A stretch of 64,000 bases of DNA from Gammaproteobacteria bacterium (GTDB taxonomy: Bacteria > Pseudomonadota > Gammaproteobacteria > SG8-11), in the NCBI GenBank assembly GCA_030610155.1, contig JAUWSG010000001.1, positions 24,240 through 88,239 of the forward strand. The letters run 5' to 3'. A program made the position numbers and the translations under genes. The notes below the pieces were generated by a model that was given only the letters and a program-made list of their open reading frames with translations, searched no databases and was not told the origin of the DNA. Shown here piece by piece: positions 5,448 to 38,379 of this stretch; within the stretch, counting starts at the first letter, position 1, and the number at the start of each line of letters is the position of its first letter.

Positions 5448-5452
5448 GCTTA

Positions 5453-8123: not shown

Positions 8124-8289
8124 CGATAGCTACCCCACGACAAAGGACTAACATCGAACATAACGCTAACGAATAGCATAAATTTGGTGAGAGAGTGTCT
8201 TTGTCGGGGGACGTTTATCAAAGGTACAAAGAACTGCTCTTTGGATTATTGTGTTATTAATATGAAGCGAATAAAAATGGTGTTATTGA

Positions 8290-9210
8290 ATGGTTACTGT
8301 AGCTAACAGCTTATTGACTCAGTCCGAAACATATAGTGAGTACAATGCCTCTACAATGAACGATAAACAGTTCGCAAGATGGGTAGAGCTGTTGGAGTTA
8401 CGTATTGGTGTTCGTGCCTCCGCACTGCGTAAAACATTTCTCACCAATGCCCTTGATATTCGACTACAGACCCTTGGGCTACAGAATTACAATGAGTATG
8501 ATGATTACCTGCATTCCGGTAATCAAGGTGAAATAGAGTGGTTTGAGTTAATTGATCTGCTCACCATCAGAGAAACAAGGTTCTTCAGACATAACAGCTC
8601 ACTGGAACTACTGCAGGATTATGCATTAAATAAACTTTCACAGTTTAAAAACGTTGGTCAGCAATCCCTTAAGGCCTGGAGTGTCGGTTGTGCAACAGGT
8701 GAAGAAGCCTATACCCTTGCGATTATTCTGGACCAGACCATCAAGAGTGCCGGGGATAAATCCTGTTATTTCAGTGTCATGGCCAGTGACATCAGCCACT
8801 CTGCACTAAATGCCGGAAGAAAAGGTACTTACTCCTCAAAACAATTGAATAAAATGGATGAAAAACTCATCCAGCAGCATTTTACTGCACTCGGCAATAA
8901 TCAATATCAAATTTCCGGGCAATTGAAAATCAGAGTGTGTTTTAACAAAGTGAATGTTCTGGATATCAGCCAAAAAAACATAGGACAGATGGACATTATT
9001 TTTTGCCAGAATCTACTCTATTATTTTGAGCATGACACCCGCATCAAAATATTGAACAAATTAACAGAATACCTGGCTACAGATGGCATTTTGATACTCG
9101 GGCCAGGTGACATTTTCCAGTGGGATAATCCCGACATGGCTTTAGTCAAAGGCGATAATACTTTGGCTTATCGCAAATCTGCCTCGATCAACCCAGGAAC
9201 AAATAAATGA
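8290..9210 (+). CDS. pilK: CheR-type MCP methyltransferase
   Basis: CheR N-terminal helical domain followed by a SAM-dependent methyltransferase fold (WSVGCATGEEAYTLAIIL). Overlaps chpA by 4 nt (ATGA). Confidence 0.75.
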   Translation: MVTVANSLLTQSETYSEYNASTMNDKQFARWVELLELRIGVRASALRKTFLTNALDIRLQTLGLQNYNEYDDYLHSGNQGEIEWFELIDLLTIRETRFFRHNSSLELLQDYALNKLSQFKNVGQQSLKAWSVGCATGEEAYTLAIILDQTIKSAGDKSCYFSVMASDISHSALNAGRKGTYSSKQLNKMDEKLIQQHFTALGNNQYQISGQLKIRVCFNKVNVLDISQKNIGQMDIIFCQNLLYYFEHDTRIKILNKLTEYLATDGILILGPGDIFQWDNPDMALVKGDNTLAYRKSASINPGTNK

Positions 9211-15413: not shown

Positions 15414-16632
15414 CAACAACGATAACAACAAGCTTCTCCGTGTTGCAATCATACATACTTCAAACCATAAACCGGAAGAGTTGCAAACGGCACTTAAAAC
15501 GCACGATATAGAGATCGTTGCGGTTGCTGAACTGTCCACCCAATGCTTGCAGGAAATCGATCCAGATAACACAGATGCCATCCTGGTTGATTTGTATGAA
15601 AATGCAGAACAGGAACTTGATATTCTGGAATCCCTACTTGAAGAATCCACCCTGCCACTTTTATTTAATGACAATGCAACAACCCAGTTTAATATTTCTA
15701 TTTCCAGTCCTGACTGGAGCGACAAACTTGCGTCCAAGTTACGCTCTCTGGCTGAAAAATCCTTAAGGAACAAACCGGTTGTTGAAGAACTTATAGCTGA
15801 AGAAAATATAGTTGAAGAACTTATTTTTGAAGAACATGTTGCTAATGAACCTGTTGCAGATATACCTGTTGAAGAACCACCCGCTGCAGAAATACCCATC
15901 CTGGAAACACCGCTTGAGCCACCGGTAGAGATACAGGATTTGCCCGTAGTAAAGCAAACTGACCCGGGAACACCCAACAGGATAACGCCTGCCAGACAAA
16001 CAGCAGCTGAATTACAAATAGAGTCATATCCTGAACCCGACACACAAACACATGCCGATCAAATCACCAGTGCAGAAAAAATATGGGTATTGGGTGCCTC
16101 TCTGGGTGGACCTATGGCGGTTAGAGATTTTCTTTCTTGCCTGCCAGAAAATTTACCTATTGCATTTGTACTCGCTCAACATATCGGAGCCAGTCATATT
16201 GAGCTATTGGGCGAACAACTTAATCGGGCCACAACATTTAATGTCATGACAGCAAAACCCGGGCACATAATACAGAATCAGGAAGTTATTTTGGCGCCCA
16301 TAGAAGAGAAAATCATTTTAAACCAATCGGGTGCCATCAGCATTGAACCTCTCTCTGGTCATTCCATTTACACACCGTCAATTGATGATGTAATGACTGA
16401 TGTGGCAAATAATTACGGTCCAAATATCGGCACAATAATTTTCAGCGGAATGGGAAATGATGGTGAAGAAGGTTGCCAGGTGATCAGCGAGAAAGGCGGT
16501 GTCGTCTGGGCCCAGGAACCGGATAGTTGCGTCATTAGCAGTATGCCCGACTGTGCACGCAACACAGGCTGTGTCACGAGTAGTGGCACCCCTGAAGAAC
16601 TGGCCATTGCGCTAGTGGAATACCTGATTTAA
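15406..16632 (+). CDS. chpB: CheB-like methylesterase with N-terminal REC domain
   Basis: The REC-like N-terminus is followed by a long acidic Pro-rich linker, then the CheB catalytic domain (WVLGASLGGPMAV...HIGASH...FSGMGNDG). Start overlaps the chpA stop. Confidence 0.8.
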   Translation: MNDNNDNNKLLRVAIIHTSNHKPEELQTALKTHDIEIVAVAELSTQCLQEIDPDNTDAILVDLYENAEQELDILESLLEESTLPLLFNDNATTQFNISISSPDWSDKLASKLRSLAEKSLRNKPVVEELIAEENIVEELIFEEHVANEPVADIPVEEPPAAEIPILETPLEPPVEIQDLPVVKQTDPGTPNRITPARQTAAELQIESYPEPDTQTHADQITSAEKIWVLGASLGGPMAVRDFLSCLPENLPIAFVLAQHIGASHIELLGEQLNRATTFNVMTAKPGHIIQNQEVILAPIEEKIILNQSGAISIEPLSGHSIYTPSIDDVMTDVANNYGPNIGTIIFSGMGNDGEEGCQVISEKGGVVWAQEPDSCVISSMPDCARNTGCVTSSGTPEELAIALVEYLI

Positions 16633-16712
16633 TTGCCTTAATAAACAGTGCTCTAGTGACAGAGATAATTACGATTAACTTATTAACCCTTTACACATAA
16701 AGGAACCTGATT

Positions 16713-17189
16713 ATGGTACAGAAAACAACATACATACATAGCCAGATTTTAAGCCTCGAAGGTGACCCGATAATATTGCCTAATACTGCGGTAGCCGAAA
16801 TTATTAACTACAGTGACCCCACACCTGTCGACAATTCGCCTGAATGGATATTGGGCACAATGGAATGGCGCGGAATCAGAATTCCGTTGATGTCACTAGA
16901 AGCTGCGATGGGAAAAAATATGCCGGCTACATCCTCGAGCAATCACATAGCCATCTTGAACAGCATTTCAGACGATGATTCTTTGAATTTCTATGCAATA
17001 GTGACCGGTGCTTTGCCGAGGCTAGTCAACCTGGATGAAAAGAAAATTACCGCCGCAGCAAATGATGACAGTGAAGAGCTGGTATTGAGTAATGTGCTGG
17101 TAAACAAATCAGCCGCCATCATTCCTGATCTGAACGCAATTGAAGATATGGTCAAAAGCACCGGCCTGAAAAATTCCCGGATCAGTTGA
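16713..17189 (+). CDS. chpC: CheW-like protein
   Basis: Small CheW-domain protein with an AAAGGAA RBS. Last gene of the operon before a strong terminator. Confidence 0.7.
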   Translation: MVQKTTYIHSQILSLEGDPIILPNTAVAEIINYSDPTPVDNSPEWILGTMEWRGIRIPLMSLEAAMGKNMPATSSSNHIAILNSISDDDSLNFYAIVTGALPRLVNLDEKKITAAANDDSEELVLSNVLVNKSAAIIPDLNAIEDMVKSTGLKNSRIS

Positions 17190-26303: not shown

Positions 26304-27260
26304 GTGGCCGATTTAAAAATTGTAATGAGTAAGGTAAAAAATAAGCTGCCAAACGGTACCGTCATCGATAACTACATCATCGAAAAAATGCTCGGTGGTG
26401 GTGGCTTCAGTATTGTTTATCTGGCCACTGATAATCATTCCAAAACAAAATCCGTCATCAAAGAATATATGCCGAGTAAAATTGCTCGTCGTGTTGATGG
26501 ACTTAAAATCGAAGCGACTGAAGATAGTCACCAGGATGCACTTGTCGCCGGTCGAAAATCCTTTTTTAAGGAAGCCAGCATCCTGGCCAAACTTCACCAC
26601 CCTAATATTGTCCACGTAACGAATTTTTTTCAGGCCAATGGCACCGTTTATATGGTGATGGATTATGAAGAAGGCGCAAATCTGCAATCCTATATAAAAT
26701 CCCGGGGCAGACTCAGTGAAACCTTTATCAGGACCGTTTTCCCACAATTGCTTACCGGACTGGATGCCATTCATTCCAGTGGCCTGCTTCATTTAGACAT
26801 CAAACCAGGCAATATTCATTTAAGACCCGGTGGCAGGCCTTTATTATTTGATTTCGGCGCGGTTCACCAGATGAGCGCCACCCGGCAGAACCAGGAAAGC
26901 CAGGTCGTCACCCCCGGATTTTCTCCGGTCGAACAATACAATATAAAAGGTTATGTCGGCCCATGGACAGATATATATGCCATCGGTGCAACCATGCGTG
27001 CCTGTATAGAAGGTGTGTCACCACCTGCTGCAAACACCCGACTGGAAAAAGACAAAATGCGGCCTGCAACCGTCGCATTCAAAAAACGTTACTCTGCACC
27101 ACTACTTGAAGCAATCGACTGGGCAATGGAAATCGATCCCGAGTTACGGCCGCAAAAAGTGAGCGATTATCTCAAAATATTTGATATTGAATATTCACTA
27201 CAAGAAGAGCCAGAAACAGCATTAGACAAATTTGTTAGCACTTTCCCGTGGGTTAAATAA
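26304..27260 (+). CDS. Hanks-type serine/threonine protein kinase (kinase domain only)
   Basis: Gly-rich loop LGGGGFSIVYLA, catalytic loop HLDIKPGNIHL, DFG and APE-like motifs. No TM or sensor domain. Confidence 0.8.
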   Translation: MADLKIVMSKVKNKLPNGTVIDNYIIEKMLGGGGFSIVYLATDNHSKTKSVIKEYMPSKIARRVDGLKIEATEDSHQDALVAGRKSFFKEASILAKLHHPNIVHVTNFFQANGTVYMVMDYEEGANLQSYIKSRGRLSETFIRTVFPQLLTGLDAIHSSGLLHLDIKPGNIHLRPGGRPLLFDFGAVHQMSATRQNQESQVVTPGFSPVEQYNIKGYVGPWTDIYAIGATMRACIEGVSPPAANTRLEKDKMRPATVAFKKRYSAPLLEAIDWAMEIDPELRPQKVSDYLKIFDIEYSLQEEPETALDKFVSTFPWVK

Positions 27261-27266
27261 GATAAA

Positions 27267-28136
27267 ATGAAATACGAAATTGGTAAAACCAACCGTCTGG
27301 GTAATCGCACAACTAATCAGGACCGGTTTGCAGTACTGGAACGTCCGGAAGCCGTTCTATTGATACTTGCAGATGGCATGGGCGGACATAAAGGAGGTGA
27401 GCTGGCTGCCAACACATTTGTTTTGAAAATGACTGAAGTGTTTAATGATACGGCTTTACCTATTAAAGATCCGCATAAATTTTTTACCTACGCATTTGAA
27501 TATGCTCATTTGTCTGTCATCGAAACCGGTAAACAACAAGAACCCCCTCTGATACCACGTAGTACGGGGGTTGCCTGTCTGGTACAAAACGGCACAGCAT
27601 GGTGGGCACATGCGGGAGATAGTCGACTCTATTTAATCAGAGAAAATAAATTATTTAGCCGAACACACGATCATTCAATTGTCGAAGAACTGATAAAAAA
27701 AGGAAAATTGACGGAAAAAGAGCGTTTGAACCATCCGAAAAGTAATCAGGTCACCCGCTGTGTCGGCGGTGTTAAAAAATCAATTAAACCTGATTTTTCA
27801 CCTGCAACCACATTACATCCTGGCGACACCCTCTTACTTTCCACCGATGGCTTATGGGGATCTTTATCAGAAGATGAAATGATAAAACACTTTAGCAATC
27901 ACTCTAAAGTGGATGTTGCATTGGACCGCATGAGTGAACACGCAGAAAACATAAGTTATCCTAACAGTGATAACATCACGGCCGTCGCGCTGCACTTGAT
28001 TTCAAATGATAACACTGTCCCTGTTACAAAAAATGCGGTACAAAATTCAAAAAACAATGATACAAAACAAGCAGACCTGGTGCTTGATGAAATCCAGCAA
28101 GCGCTTCAAAAAATTGAGAAAGACCTGAAAATATAG
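27267..28136 (+). CDS. PP2C-family Ser/Thr phosphatase
   Basis: PPM motifs (ILADGMGGHKGGELAA, STDGLWG). Lies 6 nt downstream of the kinase gene. Confidence 0.8.
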   Translation: MKYEIGKTNRLGNRTTNQDRFAVLERPEAVLLILADGMGGHKGGELAANTFVLKMTEVFNDTALPIKDPHKFFTYAFEYAHLSVIETGKQQEPPLIPRSTGVACLVQNGTAWWAHAGDSRLYLIRENKLFSRTHDHSIVEELIKKGKLTEKERLNHPKSNQVTRCVGGVKKSIKPDFSPATTLHPGDTLLLSTDGLWGSLSEDEMIKHFSNHSKVDVALDRMSEHAENISYPNSDNITAVALHLISNDNTVPVTKNAVQNSKNNDTKQADLVLDEIQQALQKIEKDLKI

Positions 28137-29553: not shown

Positions 29554-30048
29554 ATGTTTTTAAAAAGACCCCAGTATCTAACGTTGTTGGTATTAGTGTT
29601 TTTATCCGCCACTGCATGGGCAAAACCCAAAGTGGAACTGACGATGACTTCAGAAAAAGAAGTCGTCGAAAAAAATAACGGCGTGGAAACTGTAAAGCGT
29701 GTCCCCGCAACTGACATCGAATCAGGTCAGGTGCTGATTTATACCATGAAGTATTCCAATACGGGTGATGAAGCCGCTACCAACGTGGTTGTCGACAATC
29801 CTATCCCCAAAGAAACCGTATACGAGCTGGACAGTGCAAAAGGTGCTGGCAGTGAAATCAAGTTTTCCATAAACGGCGGTAAAAACTACAAGCAGCCAAG
29901 CCTGTTGACCTATGAAATCAAGGGACCGGATGGCAAGCCAGTCAGAAAAAAAGCCTCTCCGGAACAGTACACGCATGTGCGCTGGATCATCGCCACAGTG
30001 CCACCGGGTGGCAGCGGGGAATTGAGTTACCGCGTCAGAGTGAAATAA
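29554..30048 (+). CDS. Secreted single-DUF11-domain protein (putative abundant structural subunit)
   Basis: Signal peptide (LLVLVFLSATAWA). DUF11 repeat signature GQVLIYTMKYSNTGDEAATNVVVDNPIPKETVY. Strong AAAGGAG RBS. Confidence 0.7.
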   Translation: MFLKRPQYLTLLVLVFLSATAWAKPKVELTMTSEKEVVEKNNGVETVKRVPATDIESGQVLIYTMKYSNTGDEAATNVVVDNPIPKETVYELDSAKGAGSEIKFSINGGKNYKQPSLLTYEIKGPDGKPVRKKASPEQYTHVRWIIATVPPGGSGELSYRVRVK

Positions 30049-30065
30049 ATTCGCAGAAATTAACC

Positions 30066-30090
30066 AGCCCCGAAGGGGCTTTTGTCGTTT
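30066..30090 (+). terminator. Rho-independent terminator/attenuator after the small DUF11 gene
   Basis: agccccgaaggggct hairpin (6-bp stem, GAA loop) followed by tttgtcgttt. Confidence 0.6.
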
Positions 30091-30302
30091 AAAAAATTAA
30101 GGAATCAAAACATGCCATCACCAAATTACGCAGCACATAAAAGAGTTCACAACCGATTAATTGTCTACGCCAGGGCGGGCCCTGAACCTCCTAATGAAGT
30201 ACGGCAACGGTCTAAATGTCAATTATCTCAGGGACCACCGCCATGAAGAATTTAAACAACGAAATACATAAACCATTAATGAAAACCATGAGGCAAGAAA
30301 TC

Positions 30303-31568
30303 ATGAAAAAGCAAAGTAACAGGCCCTCGGGCTTATTGAAAAAGGCGACAGGTGTTGCAGCAGGATTTATCCTGTTAGCCACCCTGTTGCCGGGGACTGC
30401 AGCGGCAACAACCGCAGCCAATGCAGTGATTACCAACACCGCGACCGTCAATTATGACGATACCGGCGGCAATCCTCAAACCGCATTGACCGCGTCAGTC
30501 GATGTGACGGTCAATCTGGTGACCGCTCACCCGACGCTGAGCGCGCCGGTTGATGCAACAACATCATCAGGCGTATTCCTGAATTATACGTACACTATCA
30601 TCAACAATTCCAATGGTCCGGATACGTATAATCTGACATCGGCCGCTGTACTTGGAGCAAACGTTACCAGTCAGACCGCTGTATTCCGTGATCCATCGGA
30701 TTCAATCGATATTACAGGGGTTACAATTGGTGCCACTTCTGTTGCGGTTGCCGCTCTTGCGGGTGCAACGGTCATTACAGTACCGAATGATGGTGTCTCT
30801 GATGCCTCTGTTAATGGTATCGCGGCCGGTGATGCTGTATTTATTGCTGGTACAGTAGATGTTGTTGCTTCTGTTGTTGATAATGCGACGGGTACTTCAA
30901 CGATTACATTGACGACGGGTCTCGCGGCCAATGCCTCTGTAGGTGATCAGATTGGAGGATTGACGACATTCATCCTTAAGACCACACCGATTGCTACTGT
31001 CAATGGCAGCACGTATGACATCACGATAACGGCTAATGATGGCGCCACCGCAGGTGCTGCTCCCATAGATGTAACCACCACTACGGTGCTGGTTATCAGT
31101 CTGACAGTCACCAAATATGTGGCGAATGTGACAGCGGCGGTTGTCGGTGGTACGCCATTTCCAGCGGTAGGGACACTGAATACCGGTCTGGGTGCAGGTG
31201 GCATCGTCTATTACGCCACCGGCGTTACCGGTAACCCGGGTGAGGTACTGGAATACGTCATTGTAATTTCCAATGGCGCAGGTGCAGCGACGGCATCGGA
31301 CATTGTCATCAGTGATCCGATACCAAACTTCACCTCCCTGACCAGCAATATCGCGCTGGACCCCGGCACAACTGTCTGGAGTGACGTGGCAATAACGCCC
31401 GACAATGGTGACTTCGCCGAATCAGATGGCACATCGGTGTTTATCTATGCCGGTGATGGCACTGCGGCTGGTGAAGGTGTTGACAACGTCGGTGCTCCCG
31501 GTACGGGTGGCAGGCTGGCTGCCGGTGCCACTACCATTGGCGCCTTCCAGGTAACCATTACCCCGTAA
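30303..31568 (+). CDS. Secreted Thr/Ala/Val/Gly-rich protein with two DUF11-like domains
   Basis: Start taken at MKKQSNRPSGLLKKATGVAAGFILLATLLPGTAAA (signal peptide); the ORF track begins at 30216. DUF11-like signatures FLNYTYTIINNSNGPDTYNLT and GEVLEYVIVISNGAGAATASDIVISDPIP. No Cys and almost no basic residues. Confidence 0.65.
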   Translation: MKKQSNRPSGLLKKATGVAAGFILLATLLPGTAAATTAANAVITNTATVNYDDTGGNPQTALTASVDVTVNLVTAHPTLSAPVDATTSSGVFLNYTYTIINNSNGPDTYNLTSAAVLGANVTSQTAVFRDPSDSIDITGVTIGATSVAVAALAGATVITVPNDGVSDASVNGIAAGDAVFIAGTVDVVASVVDNATGTSTITLTTGLAANASVGDQIGGLTTFILKTTPIATVNGSTYDITITANDGATAGAAPIDVTTTTVLVISLTVTKYVANVTAAVVGGTPFPAVGTLNTGLGAGGIVYYATGVTGNPGEVLEYVIVISNGAGAATASDIVISDPIPNFTSLTSNIALDPGTTVWSDVAITPDNGDFAESDGTSVFIYAGDGTAAGEGVDNVGAPGTGGRLAAGATTIGAFQVTITP

Positions 31569-31575
31569 GGTTGTC

Positions 31576-34500
31576 ATGCTGAACCTGCTGCACAACATTC
31601 AGCAAAGCCCCGGCAATGGACTTCGTTCCATTGCCGGCGCTACTGCGTGTCTGTGTGGTTTGTTCTTACAAAAACTGTTACAAGCGATGTCGATGAAAAT
31701 TCTTTCATCGACCATCGCCCCCAGTCATTTCCGACGTGAGATGACTGCGGCCGATGAAAACGCTTTTGGTTATTTATCACCTCTGGCAGGGGCCATGATG
31801 CTATCCGTCATGTTGATGCTGCCAGCAGCATCACATGCTGTCATCATTAACAACACTGTGACGGTCAATAATAATTTTGGCCCGCTTACAGCATCAACCG
31901 ATGTCGTCTCTATTTTCAATACACCATCGACGATTGAACTACTGCAATACACACCTGTATCGGTGACCGGTTCCAGCATAGTGTCTGTGCTGACAACATC
32001 CTACAGCACCACAGGATTACCAGCAGGCCCATTTGCAGCATCATCAAATCCCGTTGCCATTGATACCACTCCGATCACCGTACTGGGTAGCCTTGATTTT
32101 CTTCAGGCCACTTCCTACAAGTCAGGCGAACCCGTATTCATTCGTGTGACAGATGCGGACCAGAACAATAATCCACTGACAAGTGACACAGTTGTTGTCA
32201 CGGTCACAACGTCCAGCTCGGGTGACAGCGTCATATTACAATTGACCGAGACCGGGCCTAACACAGGTGTGTTTGTCGGCTATATCCAGTCATCGAATGC
32301 TGCCGTTGCAGTGAATGATGATGTAATTTCGGTTGGCACGAATGAAACACTGACCGTCAGTTATGTCGATGTATTTGACGGTACTGACACCAGTGCCGCC
32401 GGTATCCTGGTTGATCCCTTCGGTATACTGTTCAGTACCGCTGACGGCTCACCTGTAAATGGTGCAAGTGTGACCATGATTGATGTTGCAACGGGTCTGC
32501 CGGCAACCATTTTTGGTGACGATGGCGTGAGTATATTTCCGGCTACGGTGACATCCGGCGGTGTCGCAACAGACAGTGGTGGTAATACCTATAACTTCCC
32601 GCCAGGTAATTATCGTTTCCCGTTTGTCGTCCCTGGCAGTTATCGTCTGGATGTCATACCACCGGCTGGATTTAATGGTCCTTCAACGATACCAACGGCC
32701 ACCATTCAAGCATTACCGGGCGCACCTTTTTCAATTGTCACAGGATCACGAAGTGAAAATTTTATTGTGAACCCCGGCCCGGCATTACACATTGACTACC
32801 CGCTGGATGCTTCTCCCTCCGGTTTGTTTATTACCAAACAGGCCATGAAGAACCGCGTTGCCATTGGTGAATTCCTGCAATACAAGCTTGATGTAAGTAA
32901 CGCCGGTGCAATTGCACTGAACGGCACAAGTATTGTCGATGTTCTGCCTGTCGGTTTCCGCTACGAGCCGGGTTCAACGCGCATTGACGCTGTGACCGCA
33001 CCGGATCCGCTGGTGTCGCCTGATGGACGGACACTAACATTTACCATTGGCGCACTGACGGCCAGCAGTGCCATTGATTTACGCTATGTGGCTGCCATCA
33101 CTCCGGGGGCAAAAGAAGGTAATGCCGTCAATATGGCCAGCGGAACAGCCAATGGCGGGGTGACATCAAACATGGCCAGTGCGTCCGTACTGGTCGTTGA
33201 CGATATGATGGACTCGCGCAGCCATTTGCTGGGAAGAGTCATCGCCGGTGGCTGTGATGCCGCTTTTGGAGAAAGCGGAGCCGTCAGCCTGCAACTGCAA
33301 AGCCAGATTGCTAAAGACAGCATTGACTATACCGCAACGCTGAATGTTGAAGTGGTCACGGTGAACAATCTCTTCGTTGTGGTGAACTTACCCGGTGCAC
33401 TTGAATACGTTAATGGCAGTGCAAAACAGAACGGCGCCCGAATTGATGATCCGGTCGTGAGTGGTAGTCAACTACGATTCGCGCTTGGTGAAGCACAGCA
33501 GGGTTCTTCATCAAGAATGACATTCAGCACCCGCACCAGAGCCAACGCCTTCGGCGAGTTTTCCATTCGTGCTTATGGCGAGTTTGATGACCCGGCCGCA
33601 GTAAAAATGCAGCAACCAGGCAAACTAAGAACCCCGGTTGCAATAAACAAAATAAAAGATTTCTCACGCATATTCCGCCTGCGATTTGGCTCGCTGTCAG
33701 CCACTCTCAAACCAGACGACCTGCAAGACATTAATGAATTCGTAACAAGCCTGGAAGACCTGTCCATTCGCCGCATCCTTATTGTTGGCCATACGGACAA
33801 ACAACCTATCAGGGCAAGAAGCCGTTCAATCTTCGCAAGTAATGAAGCCCTCTCCCTGGCGCGCGCAGGCTCGGTCAGAAAACATTTACAAAAAACACTA
33901 CGGGATAAAAACATTAAAATTGACATACTGGGCATGGGGGCCAATAAACAACTGCAATATTCTGACAGAATACTGCCTGAACAGTCATCTGCTGGAAATC
34001 AACTGTTGCTCAATCGCCGGGTTGAAGTCCAGGTGGAGCTCGACCATCAATTCTCAAAGTCACGCTTTATCGTCTCGCGGCATGACAGCGGCGCCCACTC
34101 TGTCAAAACAACCGGACCCAGAGGCAAATTATCCGAGCCTGGTCTGGCAGGTGATATACCCGGCGTGCAAAACATACGTCTTTATCTGGAAGATGGCCGC
34201 TTTGTCGATACCGACGAAAACGGCATGTATCACTTTGAAGGCCTGCGGCCTGGCACCCATGTGGTCCAGCTCGACCTCACCAGCGTTCCTGAGGGTATGG
34301 AAGTATTTTCTTGTGAAAAGAACACCCGGTTTGCCGGCACACCGCATTCACAATTTGTTGATATGCAGGGTGGCACACTATGGCGGGCCGACTTTTACTT
34401 ACGTTATAAACCAACTGCAGCAAACACGGGAAATGTGGGTATTCAGCTAACCAGTGATCTGATTCAGATGACCGGCGACATGAAAAATAGCAATGTGCAA

Positions 34501-37500
34501 TACAGGGCAAAATTAACAGGAAAAGGTGTCACGATGCTGAATCGCCGCCTTGTTGTTGATCTCCCTGATGGTGCTCAATATGTTCCCCTGAGCGCCCTGT
34601 TTAATAACAAACCAGCCAGCGTTGAAATCAACGGTAACAACCAACTGATAATCAAACTAGGTGACAGTGACACACAAACATGGAAAAACGATCTGACATT
34701 CAATGTTGATCAAGTGAAACTGTCAGAAGGTGAGTTCAATGCGATTGCGGTGCTGTTGTTCGAAACGGCAAACGGAAGATCACATCAATCACCGATAGTT
34801 GAAAACATACTGGTGAGCAAAACAGAAAGCCTGCGTAAACTGATTTTCCTGGGACACTACCAGGGCCAAAAGACCAGACTTCCGCAGCAGGAAATAAAAC
34901 GACTTGAAGGTGCAATTGATTACATGCGCGGTAAAAAGATCCGGCTGATAGAAGTCATTGCACGTACCATTATGAATCCGAATGACGCGCAAAATAAAAA
35001 AATCAGGCCCGAAAACAAAGCCCTTGCAGAGGCGCGTGCGAACAAGCTTGGCACATACATAGCCCGTTCACTAGGGCTGCATAATAAGCAGGTGAAACGT
35101 ACTGGTGTGGTGTCTGAACAAACCAATGAAAAAAATACCACACTTAAAGACCCTTCAGTCCAGTTTGTCGAAATACTTGTGACCTTATCCGAAAAACAAG
35201 CGCAACAAAGAATACATATAGGCCAATCCGATAGCGGCCTGTTAACCAGCGCCGTCGTTGGCGCAACACCAACGGTGAAAAACAACAAGGCCAAACCAAT
35301 CACTGTTTACAACAACCAGGATGGCATACAGGACATCATCGAGCAACAACGCATCGGACACCGAATCATGCCTGTTAGAGCATTACTTGATTCCAGATTA
35401 AAACCTGTTCTGAAGATCGATGGCAAGACCGTTAACGAAGACCGTATCGCAATGAAAATTCCGGACAAGGAAACCGGCAAAACATTTTATAGTTATATCG
35501 GTGTAGATCTTGGCAAGGCAGGCAAGCATGTCCTGAGCTTCACAGGCATAGGGCCCTTTGGTAACGCCCGATTTAAACAAAACATCAACATTGTCCGCAC
35601 GGGTGAAGTACATGACATTCGTGTTATCGAAACAAGTGGCAATATTGCAGATGGTAAATCGCCTGTCAGAGTAGAACTACAGTTACTGGATAAGGTCGGC
35701 GAAACTATTCACACGCAAACCAATCTAAAGATTGAATCCGGCGACCTGCGACCATATGACGATAAAGACTTACTGCCCGAGTTGCGCCGGGACACTGATA
35801 TTATCAGTGTTGATGCGGATGGCTATGTCCAGTTTGCACCTGTCACAAGCAGCGGAATCTACAATATCACACTAAGCTATAATGAGCGTTCGGTCGATAT
35901 ACCGATATATATCAAACCGCATTACCGTGAATGGATCATGGTGGGTCTGGCAGAAGGCACGCTGGGACATAAAAATCTGTCTGGCAATATGCAAAACCTT
36001 GAAGCTGCCGACATCGATGATAATTATTTCCAGGACGGCCGACTTGCCTTTTTCGCAAAAGGCAAGATAAAAGGCGAGTACCTGCTAACGATTTCATTCG
36101 ACAGCGAAAGAGAAACACCGGAACAGGGTAATGGGCTATTCGGCACTATCGACCCGAACAAGTATTATACATTATACGGTGATGCCACGACTGTACGCTA
36201 TGATGCGCCGAGTACAGAAAAATTATTCCTCAGAATTGAAAGCGATAATTTTTATGCGATGTTCGGTGATTACAACACCGACCTTAGCGTCACCGAACTG
36301 GGTCGTTACAACCGAAGCCTGACAGGCCTCAAGACAGAATATCAGGATGGAAAAGTCAGTGTCACAGCATTTGCGACACAAACCGAACAAGCCTTTATCA
36401 AGGATGAACTGCGTGGTGACGGCACATCAGGCCTGTATCGTTTGTCACGTCAGAACATCGTGCTCAACAGTGAAAAAATTACCATAGAAATACGTGATCG
36501 CTTCCAGAGTCAGAACGTACTGGAATCACAACAGCTCAGAAGGTATATCGATTATACGTTTGATCCAGTTGACGGCACTGTTTATTTCAGAGAACCCATC
36601 TATAGCCGCGATGAAAACTTCAACCCGATCTATATCGTGATAGATTACGAATCTAACTCCGGTGGCGATGAATCGCTGACAGCTGGTGGCCGTGTCGCTT
36701 TCAGGCCTTCTGATTCAGGCACTGAGCTGGGTGCCACAATAATCCATGAAGGCACACCGGGTGCTGAAGCAGATTTACTGGCTGCTGACGCCACCTACAA
36801 TCTCAACAGCAATACAAACCTTAAAGCAGAAATCGCAACTACAAGACGGGAAACATCCAGCGGCGATGTTAAAGGCTCAGCTTTTATAGCCGAAGTGCTA
36901 ACCCGCACCAACAAGCTTGATAGCACGGTCTATATACGACGACAGGATGGCGAGTTTGGTCTTGGGCAACAAAAAGGTAGTGAAACCGGTACACAAAAAT
37001 TCGGCGCAGGTGGCAGTTACCAGCTCCGTAAAAACACAAGCATCAATGCTGAAGTGTTCCGTCAGGAAAACCTGGGAACAGATGCCACACGCGACGTGGT
37101 AGAAGGCAGCGTTGAATTCAGACGCAATAAGTACGACTTCTCAACCGGCCTGCGTTTTGCGAAGGACGAAGATAGTGCCGGTGGTACAAATGAGTCAAGC
37201 TTGTTGACTGGTTCCGCAAGGCGTGCATTCATGAATGACAGACTGAATCTGAACGCAAGTGCTGAAGTGTCCATTGATAATGCTGCAAACCCGGACTACC
37301 CAAATCGCTTGATAGCCGGTGCCGAGTATCAACTCAGGGCAAACACCCAATTGTTTGTCTCACAGGAATTCACCTTTGGTGAAAACCAGGACAGCAATAC
37401 AACAAGGATAGGCCTGAAAGCAACTCCGTGGCGTAATGCCACCTTGTCCACCAGCATAGAAGGGCAGCATGGTGAATATGGTCCGCGTGTATTTTCCAAT

Positions 37501-38379
37501 ATAGGCCTGACCCAGGGTGTGCAGATCAACCAGTTCCTGAGCCTTGATTTCGGTATCGAAAATGTCAACACCCTGCGTCATCCGGGTGATGTACCATTCA
37601 ATGTGAATGTACCGCCTGCTTCGGGTACAGTGGCGAATGACTTTACTGCCGTCACTATCGGCGCAAACTACACGAAACGAAGCTGGTCCTTTACATCCCG
37701 TGGAGAATGGCGTGACGGCGACCAGGAAAACAAACGCGGATTACTTATAGGTTTTTACCGTAATCATGCACCGGGACTTGGTTTTTCCTCAAGCTTGCGA
37801 CATTTTGATACTGAGCGAAGCAATGGCACGGAAAACATAACAACAAACCTGAATTTTTCATTGGCATACAGGCCTCTGGCCAGCCAATGGATTATCCTGG
37901 ATCGCATCCAATATGCCAATGAATCCGAGCGCATGGCTAACGGTACGACCAGAACCAGAAAACTGATCAATAATCTGAATGCCAATTATTTATACGACCG
38001 CAATAACCAGGTCTCATTAATGCACGGCATCAAGTATGTCATTGATAATTTTGATGGCATTGAATATAGCGGCATGACCAATCTTTTTGGGATCGAGTAT
38101 CGACATAACCTGGGTCATCGCTGGGATATAGGTACACAGGCCAGCATACGAATGTCTGATGTCGGTGATAGTCATCGTTATTCATATGGTGTTTCTGTTG
38201 GCCACACCCTTGCCAAAAATCTCTGGCTTAGCATTGGCTACAATGTTGAAGGTTTCTCCGATGATGATTTCTCCCTGGCCAACTACACGGCATCTGGCGT
38301 GTTCGCAAAAATCCGCTTCAGCTTTGACCATTTAACCGCACGACAAACCATGGCCTGGTGGGAAAAACGTAAGCAATAG
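31576..38379 (+). CDS. Giant (2267 aa) multidomain outer-membrane protein: DUF11 domain, CarboxypepD_reg-like folds, two OmpA-like domains and a C-terminal beta-barrel-like region
   Basis: DUF11 signature GEFLQYKLDVSNAGAIALNGTSIVDVLPVGF. OmpA C-like motifs (LIVGHTD...LSLARAGSV...NRRVEVQVE) and a second degenerate copy. MYHFEGLRPGTHVV resembles a carboxypeptidase-regulatory fold. The last ~900 aa show alternating hydrophobic/aromatic beta-strand patterning (LWLSIGYNVEGF, KIRFSF). The start codon is uncertain. Confidence 0.75.
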   Translation: MLNLLHNIQQSPGNGLRSIAGATACLCGLFLQKLLQAMSMKILSSTIAPSHFRREMTAADENAFGYLSPLAGAMMLSVMLMLPAASHAVIINNTVTVNNNFGPLTASTDVVSIFNTPSTIELLQYTPVSVTGSSIVSVLTTSYSTTGLPAGPFAASSNPVAIDTTPITVLGSLDFLQATSYKSGEPVFIRVTDADQNNNPLTSDTVVVTVTTSSSGDSVILQLTETGPNTGVFVGYIQSSNAAVAVNDDVISVGTNETLTVSYVDVFDGTDTSAAGILVDPFGILFSTADGSPVNGASVTMIDVATGLPATIFGDDGVSIFPATVTSGGVATDSGGNTYNFPPGNYRFPFVVPGSYRLDVIPPAGFNGPSTIPTATIQALPGAPFSIVTGSRSENFIVNPGPALHIDYPLDASPSGLFITKQAMKNRVAIGEFLQYKLDVSNAGAIALNGTSIVDVLPVGFRYEPGSTRIDAVTAPDPLVSPDGRTLTFTIGALTASSAIDLRYVAAITPGAKEGNAVNMASGTANGGVTSNMASASVLVVDDMMDSRSHLLGRVIAGGCDAAFGESGAVSLQLQSQIAKDSIDYTATLNVEVVTVNNLFVVVNLPGALEYVNGSAKQNGARIDDPVVSGSQLRFALGEAQQGSSSRMTFSTRTRANAFGEFSIRAYGEFDDPAAVKMQQPGKLRTPVAINKIKDFSRIFRLRFGSLSATLKPDDLQDINEFVTSLEDLSIRRILIVGHTDKQPIRARSRSIFASNEALSLARAGSVRKHLQKTLRDKNIKIDILGMGANKQLQYSDRILPEQSSAGNQLLLNRRVEVQVELDHQFSKSRFIVSRHDSGAHSVKTTGPRGKLSEPGLAGDIPGVQNIRLYLEDGRFVDTDENGMYHFEGLRPGTHVVQLDLTSVPEGMEVFSCEKNTRFAGTPHSQFVDMQGGTLWRADFYLRYKPTAANTGNVGIQLTSDLIQMTGDMKNSNVQYRAKLTGKGVTMLNRRLVVDLPDGAQYVPLSALFNNKPASVEINGNNQLIIKLGDSDTQTWKNDLTFNVDQVKLSEGEFNAIAVLLFETANGRSHQSPIVENILVSKTESLRKLIFLGHYQGQKTRLPQQEIKRLEGAIDYMRGKKIRLIEVIARTIMNPNDAQNKKIRPENKALAEARANKLGTYIARSLGLHNKQVKRTGVVSEQTNEKNTTLKDPSVQFVEILVTLSEKQAQQRIHIGQSDSGLLTSAVVGATPTVKNNKAKPITVYNNQDGIQDIIEQQRIGHRIMPVRALLDSRLKPVLKIDGKTVNEDRIAMKIPDKETGKTFYSYIGVDLGKAGKHVLSFTGIGPFGNARFKQNINIVRTGEVHDIRVIETSGNIADGKSPVRVELQLLDKVGETIHTQTNLKIESGDLRPYDDKDLLPELRRDTDIISVDADGYVQFAPVTSSGIYNITLSYNERSVDIPIYIKPHYREWIMVGLAEGTLGHKNLSGNMQNLEAADIDDNYFQDGRLAFFAKGKIKGEYLLTISFDSERETPEQGNGLFGTIDPNKYYTLYGDATTVRYDAPSTEKLFLRIESDNFYAMFGDYNTDLSVTELGRYNRSLTGLKTEYQDGKVSVTAFATQTEQAFIKDELRGDGTSGLYRLSRQNIVLNSEKITIEIRDRFQSQNVLESQQLRRYIDYTFDPVDGTVYFREPIYSRDENFNPIYIVIDYESNSGGDESLTAGGRVAFRPSDSGTELGATIIHEGTPGAEADLLAADATYNLNSNTNLKAEIATTRRETSSGDVKGSAFIAEVLTRTNKLDSTVYIRRQDGEFGLGQQKGSETGTQKFGAGGSYQLRKNTSINAEVFRQENLGTDATRDVVEGSVEFRRNKYDFSTGLRFAKDEDSAGGTNESSLLTGSARRAFMNDRLNLNASAEVSIDNAANPDYPNRLIAGAEYQLRANTQLFVSQEFTFGENQDSNTTRIGLKATPWRNATLSTSIEGQHGEYGPRVFSNIGLTQGVQINQFLSLDFGIENVNTLRHPGDVPFNVNVPPASGTVANDFTAVTIGANYTKRSWSFTSRGEWRDGDQENKRGLLIGFYRNHAPGLGFSSSLRHFDTERSNGTENITTNLNFSLAYRPLASQWIILDRIQYANESERMANGTTRTRKLINNLNANYLYDRNNQVSLMHGIKYVIDNFDGIEYSGMTNLFGIEYRHNLGHRWDIGTQASIRMSDVGDSHRYSYGVSVGHTLAKNLWLSIGYNVEGFSDDDFSLANYTASGVFAKIRFSFDHLTARQTMAWWEKRKQ

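What the first reader, a model, noticed from the sequence alone, without database searches (positions are those of the whole stretch)
31576..38379. 2267-aa protein combining a DUF11 domain, two OmpA-like peptidoglycan-binding domains and a ~900-aa C-terminal barrel-like region
Domain order, read by eye, is as follows. First comes a Thr/Ser/Val-rich N-terminal region of about 400 aa. Next are carboxypeptidase-regulatory-like beta-sandwiches (NYRFPFVVPGSYRLDV; MYHFEGLRPGTHVVQLD), then a DUF11 domain of about 60 aa. A canonical OmpA_C domain follows (GHTD...NRRVEVQVE), then a second degenerate OmpA-like domain (IRLIEVIARTIM...ALAEARANKLGTYI). The final ~900 aa are rich in alternating aromatic beta-strand patterns, ending near KIRFSF. 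Periplasmic peptidoglycan anchors embedded between a putative surface module and a giant barrel is an unusual topology. It could be a self-contained secretion and anchoring platform for the two small DUF11 proteins.
Basis: partly seen in the sequence, partly recalled or inferred. Interest (0 to 1): 0.75.

Follow-up and report, generated by a model that had tools for sequence, protein, structure and literature searches.

The report
Giant barrel anchor of a strand-swapped fibre
The 2267-residue protein is real and belongs to a large unstudied family that combines a cell-wall anchor with a very large outer-membrane barrel, and its sequence and the two genes upstream suggest the three proteins plug into each other head-to-tail to form a surface fibre.

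Summary

The protein is not a one-off. The barrel occurs in at least 1426 protein clusters and more than 590 species genomes. It almost always follows the same gene order: small DUF11 protein, then 0-3 mid-size Thr/Ala/Val-rich proteins, then the giant protein.

The new point is a consistent pattern of chain ends:
- The small and mid-size proteins all stop just before the last two strands of their C-terminal CLIPPER-like domain.
- The mid-size and giant proteins all start, after the signal peptide, with a hairpin resembling those two strands.
- Lys and Asp are kept in 63 of 67 mid-size acceptor domains, and Asn in 63 of 67 of their donor hairpins.
- Three independent natural fusions join a mid-size C-terminus directly to a giant N-terminus.

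Best reading: a donor-strand-complemented, possibly isopeptide-locked fibre, mounted on a wall-anchored giant barrel. All evidence is computational. Surface exposure, secretion and covalent linkage are untested.

The parts
29554..30048 (+). A164: a 164-aa secreted protein with signal peptide MFLK...ATAWA. It is a truncated CLIPPER/DUF11 acceptor domain with no donor hairpin, so it is proposed as the distal cap or tip, or alternatively as a reversible cap for donor strands.
   Evidence: Pfam DUF11 scores 29.6 bits but covers only profile positions 5-56 of 114. About 60 homologues all stop right after '...G.V.F.VKVK'. Adding the B450 N-terminal hairpin raises the DUF11 score from 30.4 to 42.1 bits and extends coverage to 5-104. 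Controls scored 33.1-36.8. In the family consensus the catalytic Asp position is Asn, in 'NNPIP'.
30066..30080 (+). Terminator-like hairpin AGCCCC-GAA-GGGGCT followed by a T-run, 18 nt after the A164 stop codon. It may attenuate transcription.
   Evidence: Consensus scan. A similar hairpin was found in 5 of 61 loci, including the closest gammaproteobacterial relative L003. This is weak evidence.
30216..31568 (+). B450: a 450-aa secreted Thr/Ala/Val-rich protein, proposed as the shaft subunit. It has an N-terminal donor hairpin and a C-terminal truncated CLIPPER-like acceptor domain.
   Evidence: It has no Pfam hit. hhalign matches the C-terminal domain to the giant protein's complete CLIPPER domain at 96.5% probability. 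67 homologues all end with '...YQVTI[NK]' and then the stop codon.
30423..30521 (+). B450 donor hairpin, aa 70-102: AVITNTATVNYDDTGGNPQTALTASVDVTVNLV, with Asn74.
   Evidence: The family consensus after the signal peptide is TAANT.I.N.A.V.Y......A.V.VTV.LV.A.P. The Asn is present in 63 of 67 homologues. The hairpin resembles the Asn strand plus last strand of a canonical CLIPPER domain.
31095..31565 (+). B450 C-terminal acceptor domain, aa 294-450. It has Lys300 in SLTVTKYV and Asp367 in VISDPIP, and lacks an Asn strand of its own.
   Evidence: Lys and Asp occur together in 63 of 67 homologues.
31576..31740 (+). Conserved translated leader of the giant protein, aa 1-55, upstream of the signal peptide.
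   Evidence: The protein-level motif GNGLRSIAG..ACL is conserved in homologues at 48-93% identity. A looser motif, I..L...L....G..AG, occurs in Geomonas and Smithella members. The ATG lies 8 nt after the B450 stop codon.
31741..31839 (+). Signal peptide region, aa 56-88, with hydrophobic core AMMLSVMLMLP. Cleavage is probably after ASHA.
   Evidence: Read from the sequence. It is helical in the AlphaFold2 model. Homologue alignments begin here. No signal-peptide predictor was available.
31840..31914 (+). Giant-protein donor hairpin, aa 89-113: VIINNTVTVNNNFGPLTASTDVVSI, with Asn93.
   Evidence: A G[DT].I.N.A... motif follows the signal peptide across the family. pLDDT is about 47-62 here against 86 or more for the next domain. 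hhalign places it on CLIPPER columns 113-134, the Asn strand plus last strand, but weakly (E 0.0023). In three natural fusions this hairpin follows directly after a B-type C-terminus.
31912..32790 (+). Conserved N-terminal beta-sandwich domains, aa 113-290 (motifs RTPSxIEFLQYAP, TETGPNTGVF), followed by a CarboxypepD_reg-like domain, aa 291-405.
   Evidence: 40-50% identity across phyla. AlphaFold2 pLDDT is 86-94. CarboxypepD_reg scores 17.8 bits, below threshold.
32803..33210 (+). Complete CLIPPER/DUF11 domain, aa 410-545, with K421, D455 and N519.
   Evidence: Pfam PF01345 scores 28.3 bits against a cut-off of 24.6. TIGR01451 scores 35.9 bits.
33277..34071 (+). Lineage-specific inserted module: a beta-sandwich (aa 568-690) plus the canonical OmpA-like domain 1 (aa 700-832, GHTD at 738, NRRVE at 813).
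   Evidence: Typical family members of about 1950 aa lack this module. Pfam OmpA scores 54.9 bits. The Asp and Arg positions are retained.
34126..35205 (+). Ancestral module: a CarboxypepD_reg/SdrD_B-like domain (aa 851-920), a beta-sandwich (aa 930-1080) and the degenerate OmpA-like domain 2 (aa 1085-1210, ARTI in place of GHTD).
   Evidence: Relatives at about 50% identity (P0008, P0016) still have GHTD/NRRTE at this position.
35323..35925 (+). Two Ig-like (Big_1 / intimin D00-D0-like) beta-sandwich domains, aa 1250-1450.
   Evidence: AlphaFold2 pLDDT is about 80-90. Foldseek matches 6tqd, the intimin D00-D0 domains. Big_1 and Invasin_D3 hit weakly in homologues.
35926..38325 (+). Giant outer-membrane beta-barrel region, aa 1451-2250, ending in the beta-signal-like GVFAKIRFSF.
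38326..38376 (+). C-terminal 17-aa tail after the last strand, predicted helical at low confidence.
   Evidence: The family consensus is FDQxSxRxAxxW.

Best explanation
The ORF encodes the base subunit of a three-part envelope fibre exported through Sec.

Its C-terminal 800 residues or so form a very large outer-membrane beta-barrel. The model shows roughly 32-40 strands. One intact OmpA-like domain ties the protein to peptidoglycan in the periplasm. A string of about ten beta-sandwich domains leads to a free two-strand hairpin at the mature N-terminus.

That hairpin is the missing end of a CLIPPER (DUF11, CnaA-like) domain. It is proposed to insert into the truncated C-terminal CLIPPER-like domain of B450. 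B450's own N-terminal hairpin would in turn complete A164 or another B450.

The result would be a head-to-tail chain, A164 - (B450)n - giant protein. The logic matches chaperone-usher pili: a tip with no donor strand, a shaft with both a donor and an acceptor, and a terminator with a donor only. Here the fold is different, no chaperone gene is present, and the terminator is fused to its own barrel and wall anchor.

B-type acceptor domains keep the Lys and catalytic Asp, while the Asn sits on the incoming strand. The joint may therefore be locked by a spontaneous intermolecular Lys-Asn isopeptide bond.

Shown here: the domain content, a barrel-type fold for the C-terminal region, the family size, the synteny, the pattern of chain ends, the residue conservation and the fusions.

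Inferred: strand insertion between chains, covalent locking, passage of the N-terminal part through the barrel, surface exposure, and an adhesive or structural role.
For: 1. The cluster is conserved. An A164 homologue, then 0-3 B450 homologues, then the giant protein, on the same strand and in the same order, occur in most of 80 loci. These come from Desulfobacterota, Gammaproteobacteria and Nitrospirota. The same cluster is present in a relative at 93% identity.
2. The chain ends follow one pattern. About 60 A homologues end at '...F.VKVK*'. 67 B homologues end at '...YQVTI[NK]*' and begin after the signal peptide with 'TAANT.I.N.A.V.Y...A.V.VTV'. Giant proteins begin with 'G[DT].I.N.A...'.
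3. The triad is split between partners. Lys and Asp are present in 63 of 67 B acceptor domains, and Asn in 63 of 67 B donor hairpins. In the giant protein's own complete CLIPPER domain the same three residues sit in one chain.
4. There are three independent natural fusions: the L029 ORF, P0021/P0022, and P0081, which was seen on 14 contigs. Each joins a B-type C-terminal strand to the giant protein's donor hairpin through a linker of 3-7 residues. No leader or signal peptide lies between them.
5. Lys and Asn are lost together in L029 (K to Q, N to S) and in L031 (K to Q, N to T).
6. The Pfam DUF11 score of A164 rises from 30.4 to 42.1 bits with the B450 hairpin appended. Profile coverage extends from 5-56 to 5-104. 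Shuffled, reversed, unrelated and genuine-CLIPPER-end controls scored 33.1-36.8.
7. hhalign places the giant protein's hairpin on the Asn strand plus last strand of CLIPPER.
8. In the monomer model the hairpin has pLDDT of about 50-60, next to domains at 86 or more.
9. Larger 'acceptor-only' proteins of 511-1642 aa flank some clusters. They have the same abrupt C-terminal end and no donor motif, like alternative tip adhesins.
10. The barrel is supported, and the intact OmpA-1.
11. There are precedents for donor-strand exchange with an isopeptide lock: the archaeal thread (PMC9715654) and C. perfringens BsaA (10.1101/2024.11.04.621531). CLIPPER is an experimentally verified isopeptide domain (PMC12617251).
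Against: - Strand insertion between chains is therefore inferred from sequence only.
- Pfam chimera tests for the B450 acceptor domain were inconclusive: 18.6 bits alone, no hit with the B450 donor, 13.7 with the giant donor and 15.3 with a reversed donor. The gain for A164 with the giant protein's hairpin (37.6 bits) is no better than the reversed control (36.6).
- The hhalign placement of the hairpin is statistically weak (probability 12.6%). The B donor alignment matched only 5 columns.
- The A family lacks the catalytic Asp, so a covalent lock cannot apply at that joint.
- There are counter-examples to the joint loss of Lys and Asn. In L015 the giant donor has Ser while the B protein keeps Lys and Asp. 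In L008 and L014 the second B protein has Ser/Glu while the giant donor keeps Asn.
- About 20 loci have no detectable B homologue.
- There is no evidence on which side of the outer membrane any part lies.
- There is no experimental literature on any family member.
Confidence: 0.5

Rival explanations
1. Envelope tether only. The giant protein is a structural link between the outer membrane and peptidoglycan, in the manner of OmpA, OmpM or SlpA. Its beta-sandwich string stays in the periplasm. The N-terminal hairpins of B450 and the giant protein fold in cis. A164 and B450 are co-regulated secreted proteins that are not physically joined to it.
For: A wall-binding domain combined with a barrel in one chain is the defining layout of known tethers. 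The best Foldseek matches are SlpA structures. OmpA-1 is intact. Pfam and hhalign support for complementation is weak for B450 and for the giant protein's hairpin.
Against: This reading does not explain several observations. About 130 A and B homologues all stop exactly one strand short of the Asn strand. B acceptor domains keep Lys and Asp with no Asn strand of their own. The hairpin has low model confidence. Three independent fusions delete exactly the leader and signal peptide and splice a B C-terminus to the giant protein's N-terminus.
Confidence: 0.17
2. Usher-like pore. The barrel is mainly a secretion channel through which an A164/B450 polymer is exported and assembled. The giant protein's N-terminal region stays periplasmic and acts as the recruiting or chaperoning platform. 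The fibre is released, or held non-covalently.
Against: The Pfam Usher model does not hit any of 9 members at E <= 10. No PapD-like chaperone is present. The giant protein carries a donor hairpin itself and is found fused to B, which makes it a subunit of the chain rather than only a channel. Similarity to ushers is no greater than to TonB-dependent receptors or LptD.
Confidence: 0.18
3. Self-exporting monomeric adhesin, type V-like. The N-terminal region is a passenger exported through the protein's own C-terminal barrel. A164 and B450 are unrelated neighbours or minor accessory factors.
For: The layout is an N-terminal beta-sandwich stalk, a C-terminal barrel, and a long conserved leader before the signal peptide, as in many large type V proteins. 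Intimin-like Ig domains lie next to the barrel.
Against: No autotransporter or inverse-autotransporter Pfam model hits. The barrel is far larger than 12-16 strands. Periplasmic OmpA domains lie between the supposed passenger and the barrel. Tight synteny and the fusions tie A164 and B450 to the protein.
Confidence: 0.1

Closest known systems
Chaperone-usher pili (PapC/FimD ushers; Pap/Fim subunits with N-terminal extensions)
   Same: Sec-exported subunits have an incomplete beta-sandwich that is completed by the next subunit's N-terminal strand. The tip subunit has no donor strand, and the terminator has a donor but no usable acceptor. A large outer-membrane barrel sits at the base.
   Different: The subunit fold is CLIPPER/CnaA-like and lacks two strands, rather than an Ig-like pilin lacking one. 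No periplasmic chaperone gene is present. The Pfam Usher model does not hit. The barrel model has 32 or more strands against 24. The barrel, the wall anchor and the terminating donor strand are all in one polypeptide.
Donor-strand 'exchange-and-lock' fibres: Sulfolobus thread Saci_0406 (PMC9715654) and Clostridium perfringens BsaA (10.1101/2024.11.04.621531)
   Same: An N-terminal strand inserts into the neighbouring subunit. A conserved triad is split between the partners and could form a spontaneous intermolecular isopeptide bond without a sortase.
   Different: Those are single-subunit fibres of an archaeon and a Gram-positive bacterium, built on other folds. BsaA uses Asn-Glu-Lys, and the thread links its N-terminal amine to an Asn. 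Neither has an outer-membrane or barrel component. Covalent bonding here is only inferred.
CLIPPER (DUF11) fibrillar adhesins, for example Acinetobacter silvestris B9T28_05395 (PMC12617251, PDB 9IFR)
   Same: They have the same domain family, with Lys/Asp/Asn isopeptide chemistry, in a long beta-sandwich stalk of a Gram-negative bacterium, combined with an OmpA-like anchoring domain.
   Different: There the isopeptide is intramolecular within complete tandem domains of one chain. No split domains, separate subunits or giant C-terminal barrel were described.
Deinococcus SlpA and other tethers between peptidoglycan and the outer membrane (OmpA, OmpM)
   Same: A wall-binding domain and a very large barrel lie in one chain (30 strands in SlpA). 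SlpA structures are the best Foldseek matches to the model.
   Different: SlpA uses an SLH domain and a coiled coil, and it forms trimers. TM-scores are only 0.18-0.26. SlpA has no donor hairpin and no partner subunits.
SprA (type 9 secretion translocon, 36 strands) and LptD (26 strands)
   Same: They are single-chain barrels of exceptional size that pass large substrates. They rank among the top fold matches.
   Different: There is no sequence similarity, and no type 9 or Lpt partner genes are nearby. The fold match is generic, with TM <= 0.29.
Inverse autotransporters (intimin/invasin)
   Same: They have a periplasmic peptidoglycan-binding domain, a barrel and Big_1-type Ig domains next to the barrel. 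Intimin D00-D0 matches aa 1250-1450.
   Different: The order is reversed. The barrel is many times larger than 12 strands. The wall-binding domain is OmpA-like rather than LysM. The IAT_beta Pfam model does not hit.

Membership tests
OmpA-like peptidoglycan-binding domain (PF00691) | Profile match above Pfam's gathering score | tested here: met
   54.9 bits against a cut-off of 27.2, two stretches, best at aa 704-796.
OmpA-like peptidoglycan-binding domain (PF00691) | The Asp of G[HY]TD and the Arg of LSxxRA, which bind diaminopimelate. Positions follow E. coli OmpA D241/R256, and that sequence was recalled from memory. | tested here: met
   Domain 1 has GHTD (738), LSLARA and NRRVE (813).
OmpA-like peptidoglycan-binding domain (PF00691), second copy at aa 1085-1210 | The same Asp and Arg positions | tested here: not met
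   It reads ARTI instead of GHTD, so the Asp is lost, and QFVE instead of NRRVE. The Arg of LAEARA is kept. The fold is retained in the AlphaFold2 model.
CLIPPER / DUF11 (PF01345), giant protein aa 418-536 | Full-length profile match, and Lys (first strand), Asp (catalytic) and Asn (penultimate strand) | tested here: met
   28.3 bits against 24.6, profile positions 3-112 of 114. K421, D455 and N519 are present. Bond formation was not tested.
CLIPPER / DUF11 (PF01345), A164 | Full-length profile match and the catalytic triad | tested here: not met
   The score is above threshold (29.6 bits) but covers only profile positions 5-56 of 114. The chain ends before the Asn strand. The family consensus has Asn at the catalytic Asp position.
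CLIPPER / DUF11 (PF01345), B450 C-terminal domain | Profile match | tested here: inconclusive
   There is no Pfam hit for the whole protein. The isolated domain scores 18.6 bits, below threshold. hhalign to the giant protein's CLIPPER domain gives 96.5% probability over 43 columns. Lys300 and Asp367 are conserved in 63 of 67 homologues.
Chaperone-usher pathway | Usher protein (PF00577) | tested here: not met
   No hit at E <= 10 in the window protein or in 8 family members.
Chaperone-usher pathway | Dedicated PapD-like periplasmic chaperone in the cluster | tested here: not met
   The neighbours are radC, coaBC, a Ser/Thr kinase and a PP2C phosphatase. No chaperone family appears in four other annotated loci.
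Chaperone-usher pathway | Subunits with an incomplete fold completed by the next subunit's N-terminal strand | tested here: inconclusive
   The pattern of chain ends, the fusions and the split triad support an analogous mechanism. No structural test was possible.
Classical (Va) and inverse (Ve) autotransporters | 12-strand autotransporter or IAT_beta barrel domain | tested here: not met
   No such Pfam hit, even at E <= 10. The model has 32 or more strands.
Sortase-assembled pili | C-terminal LPXTG-type sorting signal and a sortase gene | tested here: not met
   The A and B C-termini end at '...VKVK*' and '...YQVTIx*' with no sorting signal. No sortase appears in the annotated loci.
Single-chain giant outer-membrane barrel (SlpA / SprA / LptD class), fold level only | A closed transmembrane beta-barrel of more than 24 strands | tested here: inconclusive

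The most novel reading that the evidence does not exclude
This may be a widespread and so far unrecognised fibre-assembly pathway of diderm bacteria. It would need neither a chaperone nor a sortase. CLIPPER isopeptide domains are split between consecutive subunits, so that inserting a strand rebuilds the Lys/Asp/Asn site and locks the subunits covalently, as in a natural SpyTag/SpyCatcher relay. The last subunit would be fused to its own barrel of 30 or more strands, which serves as translocon, terminator and peptidoglycan-tied anchor at once.
Probability: 0.28. Interest if true: 0.9.

Novelty: new variant of a known kind. Interest (0 to 1): 0.72.

Why it matters
If the reading holds, a gene cluster present in hundreds of environmental species encodes a new way to build and anchor a surface fibre in bacteria with two membranes. 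These include Geobacter relatives, sulfate reducers, syntrophs, sulfur-oxidising and marine Gammaproteobacteria, and Nitrospira.

- It would extend donor-strand assembly beyond the chaperone-usher and type V pilus folds.
- It would bring spontaneous intermolecular isopeptide locking, so far seen in an archaeon and a Gram-positive bacterium, into Gram-negative bacteria.
- It would add a single-chain barrel in the size class of SprA and SlpA, whose passenger is its own N-terminus.

In practice it gives names and testable roles to three families that are now annotated only as 'OmpA family protein', 'TIGR01451 repeat protein' or hypothetical. Split CLIPPER pairs could also serve as new protein-ligation tags. 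Even the conservative reading matters: it defines a very large uncharacterised family of outer-membrane proteins, with at least 1426 clusters.

Tried and rejected
- **PDB sequence search of the whole protein.** It returned only designed 'Pizza' propellers, matched to a Gly/Thr-rich stretch, and PomB, matched to OmpA. Nothing matched the barrel. A chimeric A164-plus-donor query found nothing.
- **Relaxed Pfam scans of the barrel in 9 members.** Only sub-threshold porin-type hits appeared: Porin_4, OMP_b-brl, OmpA_membrane, BBP2 and DUF2490. There was no Usher, LptD, Bac_surface_Ag or autotransporter hit. Membership in those families is rejected.
- **NCBIfam.** Only OmpA-type and TIGR01451 hits were found, so no curated family covers the protein.
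- **Foldseek of the N-terminal model against PDB.** It gave generic multi-sandwich hits (alpha-2-macroglobulins, integrins, RrgB, SdrD) at TM <= 0.10 relative to the query, which is uninformative.
- **The afdb50 fold library** was unavailable.
- **Pfam chimera test for the B450 acceptor domain and for natural fusion junctions.** All scores were below threshold. The alignment extended across the junction only slightly: DUF7927 rose from 14.7 to 21.4 bits, and DUF11 from 11.4 to 12.8 bits.
- **Conservation of the hairpin after A164.** It was found in only 5 of 61 loci, so differential expression is not a family feature.
- **An isopeptide lock at the A164 joint.** This is rejected, because the catalytic Asp is Asn in the family consensus.
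- **Literature searches.** No paper was found on this family or cluster.
- **tRNA scan of the window.** None was found, so there is no integration-site clue.
- **'Kaarinaea lacus' as the source organism.** This is rejected as a guide. It is a cyanobacterium, and its homologues probably come from associated bacteria.

Full report
**1. Observation**

The window has one uninterrupted ORF from 31576 to 38379 on the + strand, 2267 codons long.

Pfam finds three things:
- OmpA: 54.9 bits against a cut-off of 27.2, two stretches, best at aa 704-796.
- DUF11: 28.3 bits against 24.6, aa 418-536. Recent Pfam releases call this family CLIPPER (PMC12617251).
- SdrD_B: a sub-threshold hit at aa 862-910.

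NCBIfam adds only OmpA-type models and TIGR01451. Nothing in Pfam, NCBIfam or the PDB sequences covers aa ~1250-2267.

The same family is precomputed for many homologues.

I aligned both OmpA-like segments with family members and with E. coli OmpA, whose sequence I recalled from memory. Copy 1 keeps GHTD, LSxARA and NRRVE. Copy 2 reads ARTI, LAEARA and QFVE, so the peptidoglycan-contacting Asp is gone. Relatives at about 50% identity still have GHTD in copy 2.

Typical family members are about 1950 aa and have a single such module. The window protein and its close relatives carry an extra inserted module (aa 568-850) that now holds the intact OmpA domain.

**2. The C-terminal region**

I modelled aa 1250-2267 with AlphaFold2 on a 51-sequence alignment. 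The result has mean pLDDT 75.5 and pTM 0.58.
- Two beta-sandwich domains occupy aa 1250-1450.
- About 8 further strands follow, interrupted by two disordered loops, and then a small beta region.
- Thirty-two consecutive long antiparallel strands run to aa ~2250 and end in GVFAKIRFSF. A 17-residue tail follows.

Foldseek ranks the largest single-chain barrels first: Deinococcus SlpA, SprA of the type 9 translocon, and LptD. It matches the two pre-barrel domains to intimin D00-D0. All TM-scores are 0.29 or lower for the barrel matches, so there is no close solved relative.

Relaxed Pfam scans of nine family members give only sub-threshold porin-type hits and no Usher, LptD or autotransporter hit.

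I could not inspect coordinates, however. Closure, the exact strand number and one barrel versus two remain unverified.

**3. How common it is**

- A full-length search returned more than 516 homologues of about 1900-2500 aa. Where sources name them at all, the names are only 'OmpA family protein', 'TIGR01451 repeat protein' or 'hypothetical protein'.
- phmmer with aa 1450-2267 against 1.84 billion cluster representatives found 3374 proteins at E <= 1e-3 and 1426 at E <= 1e-30. Among full-length hits the barrel lies at the C-terminus of proteins of 1600-2900 aa.
They come from Geobacter, Geomonas, Desulfosarcina, Smithella, Desulfuromonadales, Acidiferrobacterales, Pseudomonadales and Nitrospira.
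- No paper on the family turned up.

**4. Surroundings**

Upstream on the same strand lie two genes:
- A164 (29554..30048): it has a signal peptide, and its DUF11 hit covers only the first half of the profile.
- B450 (30216..31568): it has a signal peptide, is Thr/Ala/Val-rich and has no Pfam hit.

B450 stops 8 nt before the giant ORF starts. The cluster sits between radC and coaBC, and a metagenomic relative at 93% identity has the same arrangement.

Among the 80 related loci I fetched, most of those with enough upstream sequence show the same order: an A164 homologue, then 0-3 B450 homologues, then the giant gene. No chaperone, sortase or secretion-system gene is conserved around it.

**5. 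The pattern of chain ends**

This is the main new result.

A canonical CLIPPER domain ends with '...G.s.t.t..v.v', then '..G.itNtAtV', then '.....a...vtV'. The Asn strand carries the isopeptide Asn. I know this domain pattern from the family itself. The Lys/Asp/Asn triad is documented for PDB 9IFR in PMC12617251. The giant protein's own internal domain has this complete ending, '...DLRYVAAITPGAKEGNAVNMASGTANGGVTSNMASASVLV'.

By contrast:
- All of about 60 A164 homologues stop at '...G.V.F.VKVK*'.
- All 67 B450 homologues stop at '...YQVTI[NK]*'. Both stops fall exactly before the Asn strand.
- B450 homologues begin after the signal peptide with 'TAANT.I.N.A.V.Y......A.V.VTV.LV'.
- Giant proteins begin with 'G[DT].I.N.A........S..V....RTPS.IEFLQYAP'. 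Both openings look like the two missing strands.
- A164 has no such opening.

The residue counts fit. In B-type acceptor domains the first-strand Lys and the catalytic Asp occur together in 63 of 67 sequences. In B-type donor hairpins the Asn occurs in 63 of 67. The A family has Asn in place of the catalytic Asp.

**6. Tests of complementation**

(a) Natural fusions. Three independent natural fusions splice a B-type C-terminus straight onto the giant protein's donor hairpin, and the leader and signal peptide are deleted in each:
- L029: '...ILILYRATV-GNANQGN-QIVSSARF...VTVTVVNRTASVVEMFNYAP'
- P0021/P0022: '...LLFRVQA-NPPSPGD-IISNTATLNF...'
- P0081: '...LVLYQVNVN-NPVQGD-KIVNSAQL...'

P0081 occurs on 14 contigs, so it is not an assembly artefact. 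In these proteins the two halves form one contiguous chain in canonical CLIPPER order.

(b) Joint loss. In L029 the acceptor Lys is Gln and the donor Asn is Ser. In L031 the only B protein has Gln, and the giant donor has Thr at the Asn position. Counter-examples exist in L015 and in L008/L014.

(c) Pfam chimeras with A164. Appending the B450 hairpin to mature A164 raises the DUF11 score from 30.4 to 42.1 bits and extends coverage from profile positions 5-56 to 5-104. The controls were:
- two shuffled hairpins: 33.1 and 33.6 bits;
- an unrelated B450 segment: 33.5 bits;
- a reversed hairpin: 36.6 bits;
- the genuine end of the giant protein's CLIPPER domain: 36.8 bits.

The giant protein's own hairpin gives 37.6 bits, no better than the reversed control.

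(d) Pfam chimeras with the B450 acceptor domain, and with the fusion junctions. The same test was inconclusive.

(e) Profile-profile comparison. hhalign matches the A and B acceptor domains to the first half of the complete CLIPPER domain at 95-96% probability. It places the giant protein's hairpin on the Asn strand plus last strand, but weakly (E 0.0023, probability 12.6%). The B hairpin matched only 5 columns.

(f) Monomer model. In the AlphaFold2 model of aa 60-1250 (pLDDT 83), the hairpin has pLDDT of about 47-62. The next domains are at 86 or more.

(g) Larger acceptor-only proteins. Proteins of 511-1642 aa flank several clusters. They have varied N-terminal domains, no donor motif and the same abrupt ending, '...TLQYKV.VK*'. 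They look like alternative tip subunits.

**7. Interpretation**

The simplest account is a head-to-tail assembly in which each N-terminal hairpin completes the truncated domain of the subunit ahead of it:
- Tip: A164, or a larger acceptor-only protein.
- Shaft: one or more B450-type subunits.
- Base: the giant protein, fixed in the outer membrane by its barrel and to peptidoglycan by OmpA-1.

The logic matches chaperone-usher pili, which I know from the established literature; it is also summarised in PMC9715654. The fold differs, no chaperone is present, and the terminator, barrel and anchor are fused.

At B-type acceptor domains the rebuilt Lys/Asp/Asn site could lock the joint covalently. 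There are precedents in the archaeal thread (PMC9715654) and in BsaA (10.1101/2024.11.04.621531).

For the OmpA domains to be periplasmic and the N-terminus to be external, the chain would have to pass through the barrel. That is plausible for a barrel of this size, but nothing here shows it.

A164's role is ambiguous. It could be a distal cap, or a reversible periplasmic cap for donor strands. It lacks the catalytic Asp and is better conserved than B450. In this window a terminator-like hairpin follows it, though that hairpin is not conserved across the family.

**8. Rivals**

I considered three:
- a pure tether between the outer membrane and peptidoglycan, with the hairpins folding in cis;
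- an usher-like pore whose N-terminal region stays periplasmic;
- a type V-like monomeric adhesin.

The first and third fail to explain the abrupt chain ends, the split triad and the fusions. The second overlaps with the preferred model and differs mainly in whether the giant protein is itself the last subunit.

**9. Verdict**

The family is widespread and uncharacterised. The proposed mechanism is a new variant of donor-strand fibre assembly and rests on sequence patterns only. My confidence in the strand-complemented, barrel-anchored fibre is about 0.5, and lower for the covalent lock.

Noticed in passing
window 31576-31740 (aa 1-55 of the giant protein): A translated leader lies upstream of the signal peptide. 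It is conserved at the protein level (GNGLRSIAG..ACL) in homologues at 48-93% identity. A looser motif, I..L...L....G..AG, occurs in Geomonas and Smithella members. It recalls the extended signal peptides of very large type V proteins but does not match them.
   Followed up: partly
window 30066-30080: A terminator-like hairpin (AGCCCC-GAA-GGGGCT plus a T-run) sits 18 nt after the A164 stop codon. It might give A164 a higher transcript level than the downstream genes. A comparable hairpin was found in only 5 of 61 related loci, including the closest gammaproteobacterial relative, L003.
   Followed up: yes
window 5354-17189: This is a Pil-Chp-type chemosensory cluster. It comprises CheW, a PilJ-type receptor (6093-8123), CheR, a 2068-aa CheA with five Hpt domains and a receiver domain (9207-15413), CheB and a second CheW.
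   Followed up: partly
window 26304-28136: A eukaryotic-type Ser/Thr protein kinase and a PP2C phosphatase form a pair directly upstream of radC. The same pair sits beside the cluster in the relative at 93% identity (L083).
   Followed up: no
window 30001-34000: G+C is 0.50 here against 0.42-0.46 in the flanks. The region covers B450 and the N-terminal third of the giant gene. The rise may reflect Ala/Gly/Thr/Val-rich coding or a foreign origin. The cluster sits between radC and coaBC, which I recall being adjacent in many Gammaproteobacteria.
   Followed up: no
L081 15929-20857; L084 3501-5741 and 15837-17372 (-); L085 3456-6062; L086 1946-5761: Large proteins of 511-1642 aa lie next to related clusters. 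Where Pfam families are on record they are CLIPPER, CLIPPER_2 or DUF7933 (the L084 746-aa protein has only a faint P_proprotein hit). They have no donor motif and the same abrupt acceptor-type C-terminus ('...TLQYKV.VK*'). They may be alternative tip adhesins. None is present in the window.
   Followed up: partly
L029 6841-13063; P0021, P0022, P0081: These are natural fusions of a B450-type protein to the giant protein, with the leader and signal peptide removed. P0081 occurs on 14 contigs from several samples.
   Followed up: yes
P0005, P0009, P0011 (homologues at 50-60% identity): NCBI assigns these homologues to Kaarinaea lacus, a Nostocales cyanobacterium. Several diverged paralogues on separate contigs suggest they come from bacteria associated with the culture rather than from the cyanobacterium.
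   Followed up: partly
window aa 560 and aa 913 of the giant protein (about 33253 and 34312): Two Cys residues are invariant or nearly so across the family. In typical members they flank a CarboxypepD_reg-like domain about 60 residues apart. In the window protein the 290-aa extra module is inserted right after the first Cys. A disulfide between them would bridge the insertion.
   Followed up: no
L086 1-1484: A genuine Pfam Usher gene lies a few kilobases upstream of one related cluster. It belongs to a separate gene set, is not conserved elsewhere, and is probably coincidental.
   Followed up: no
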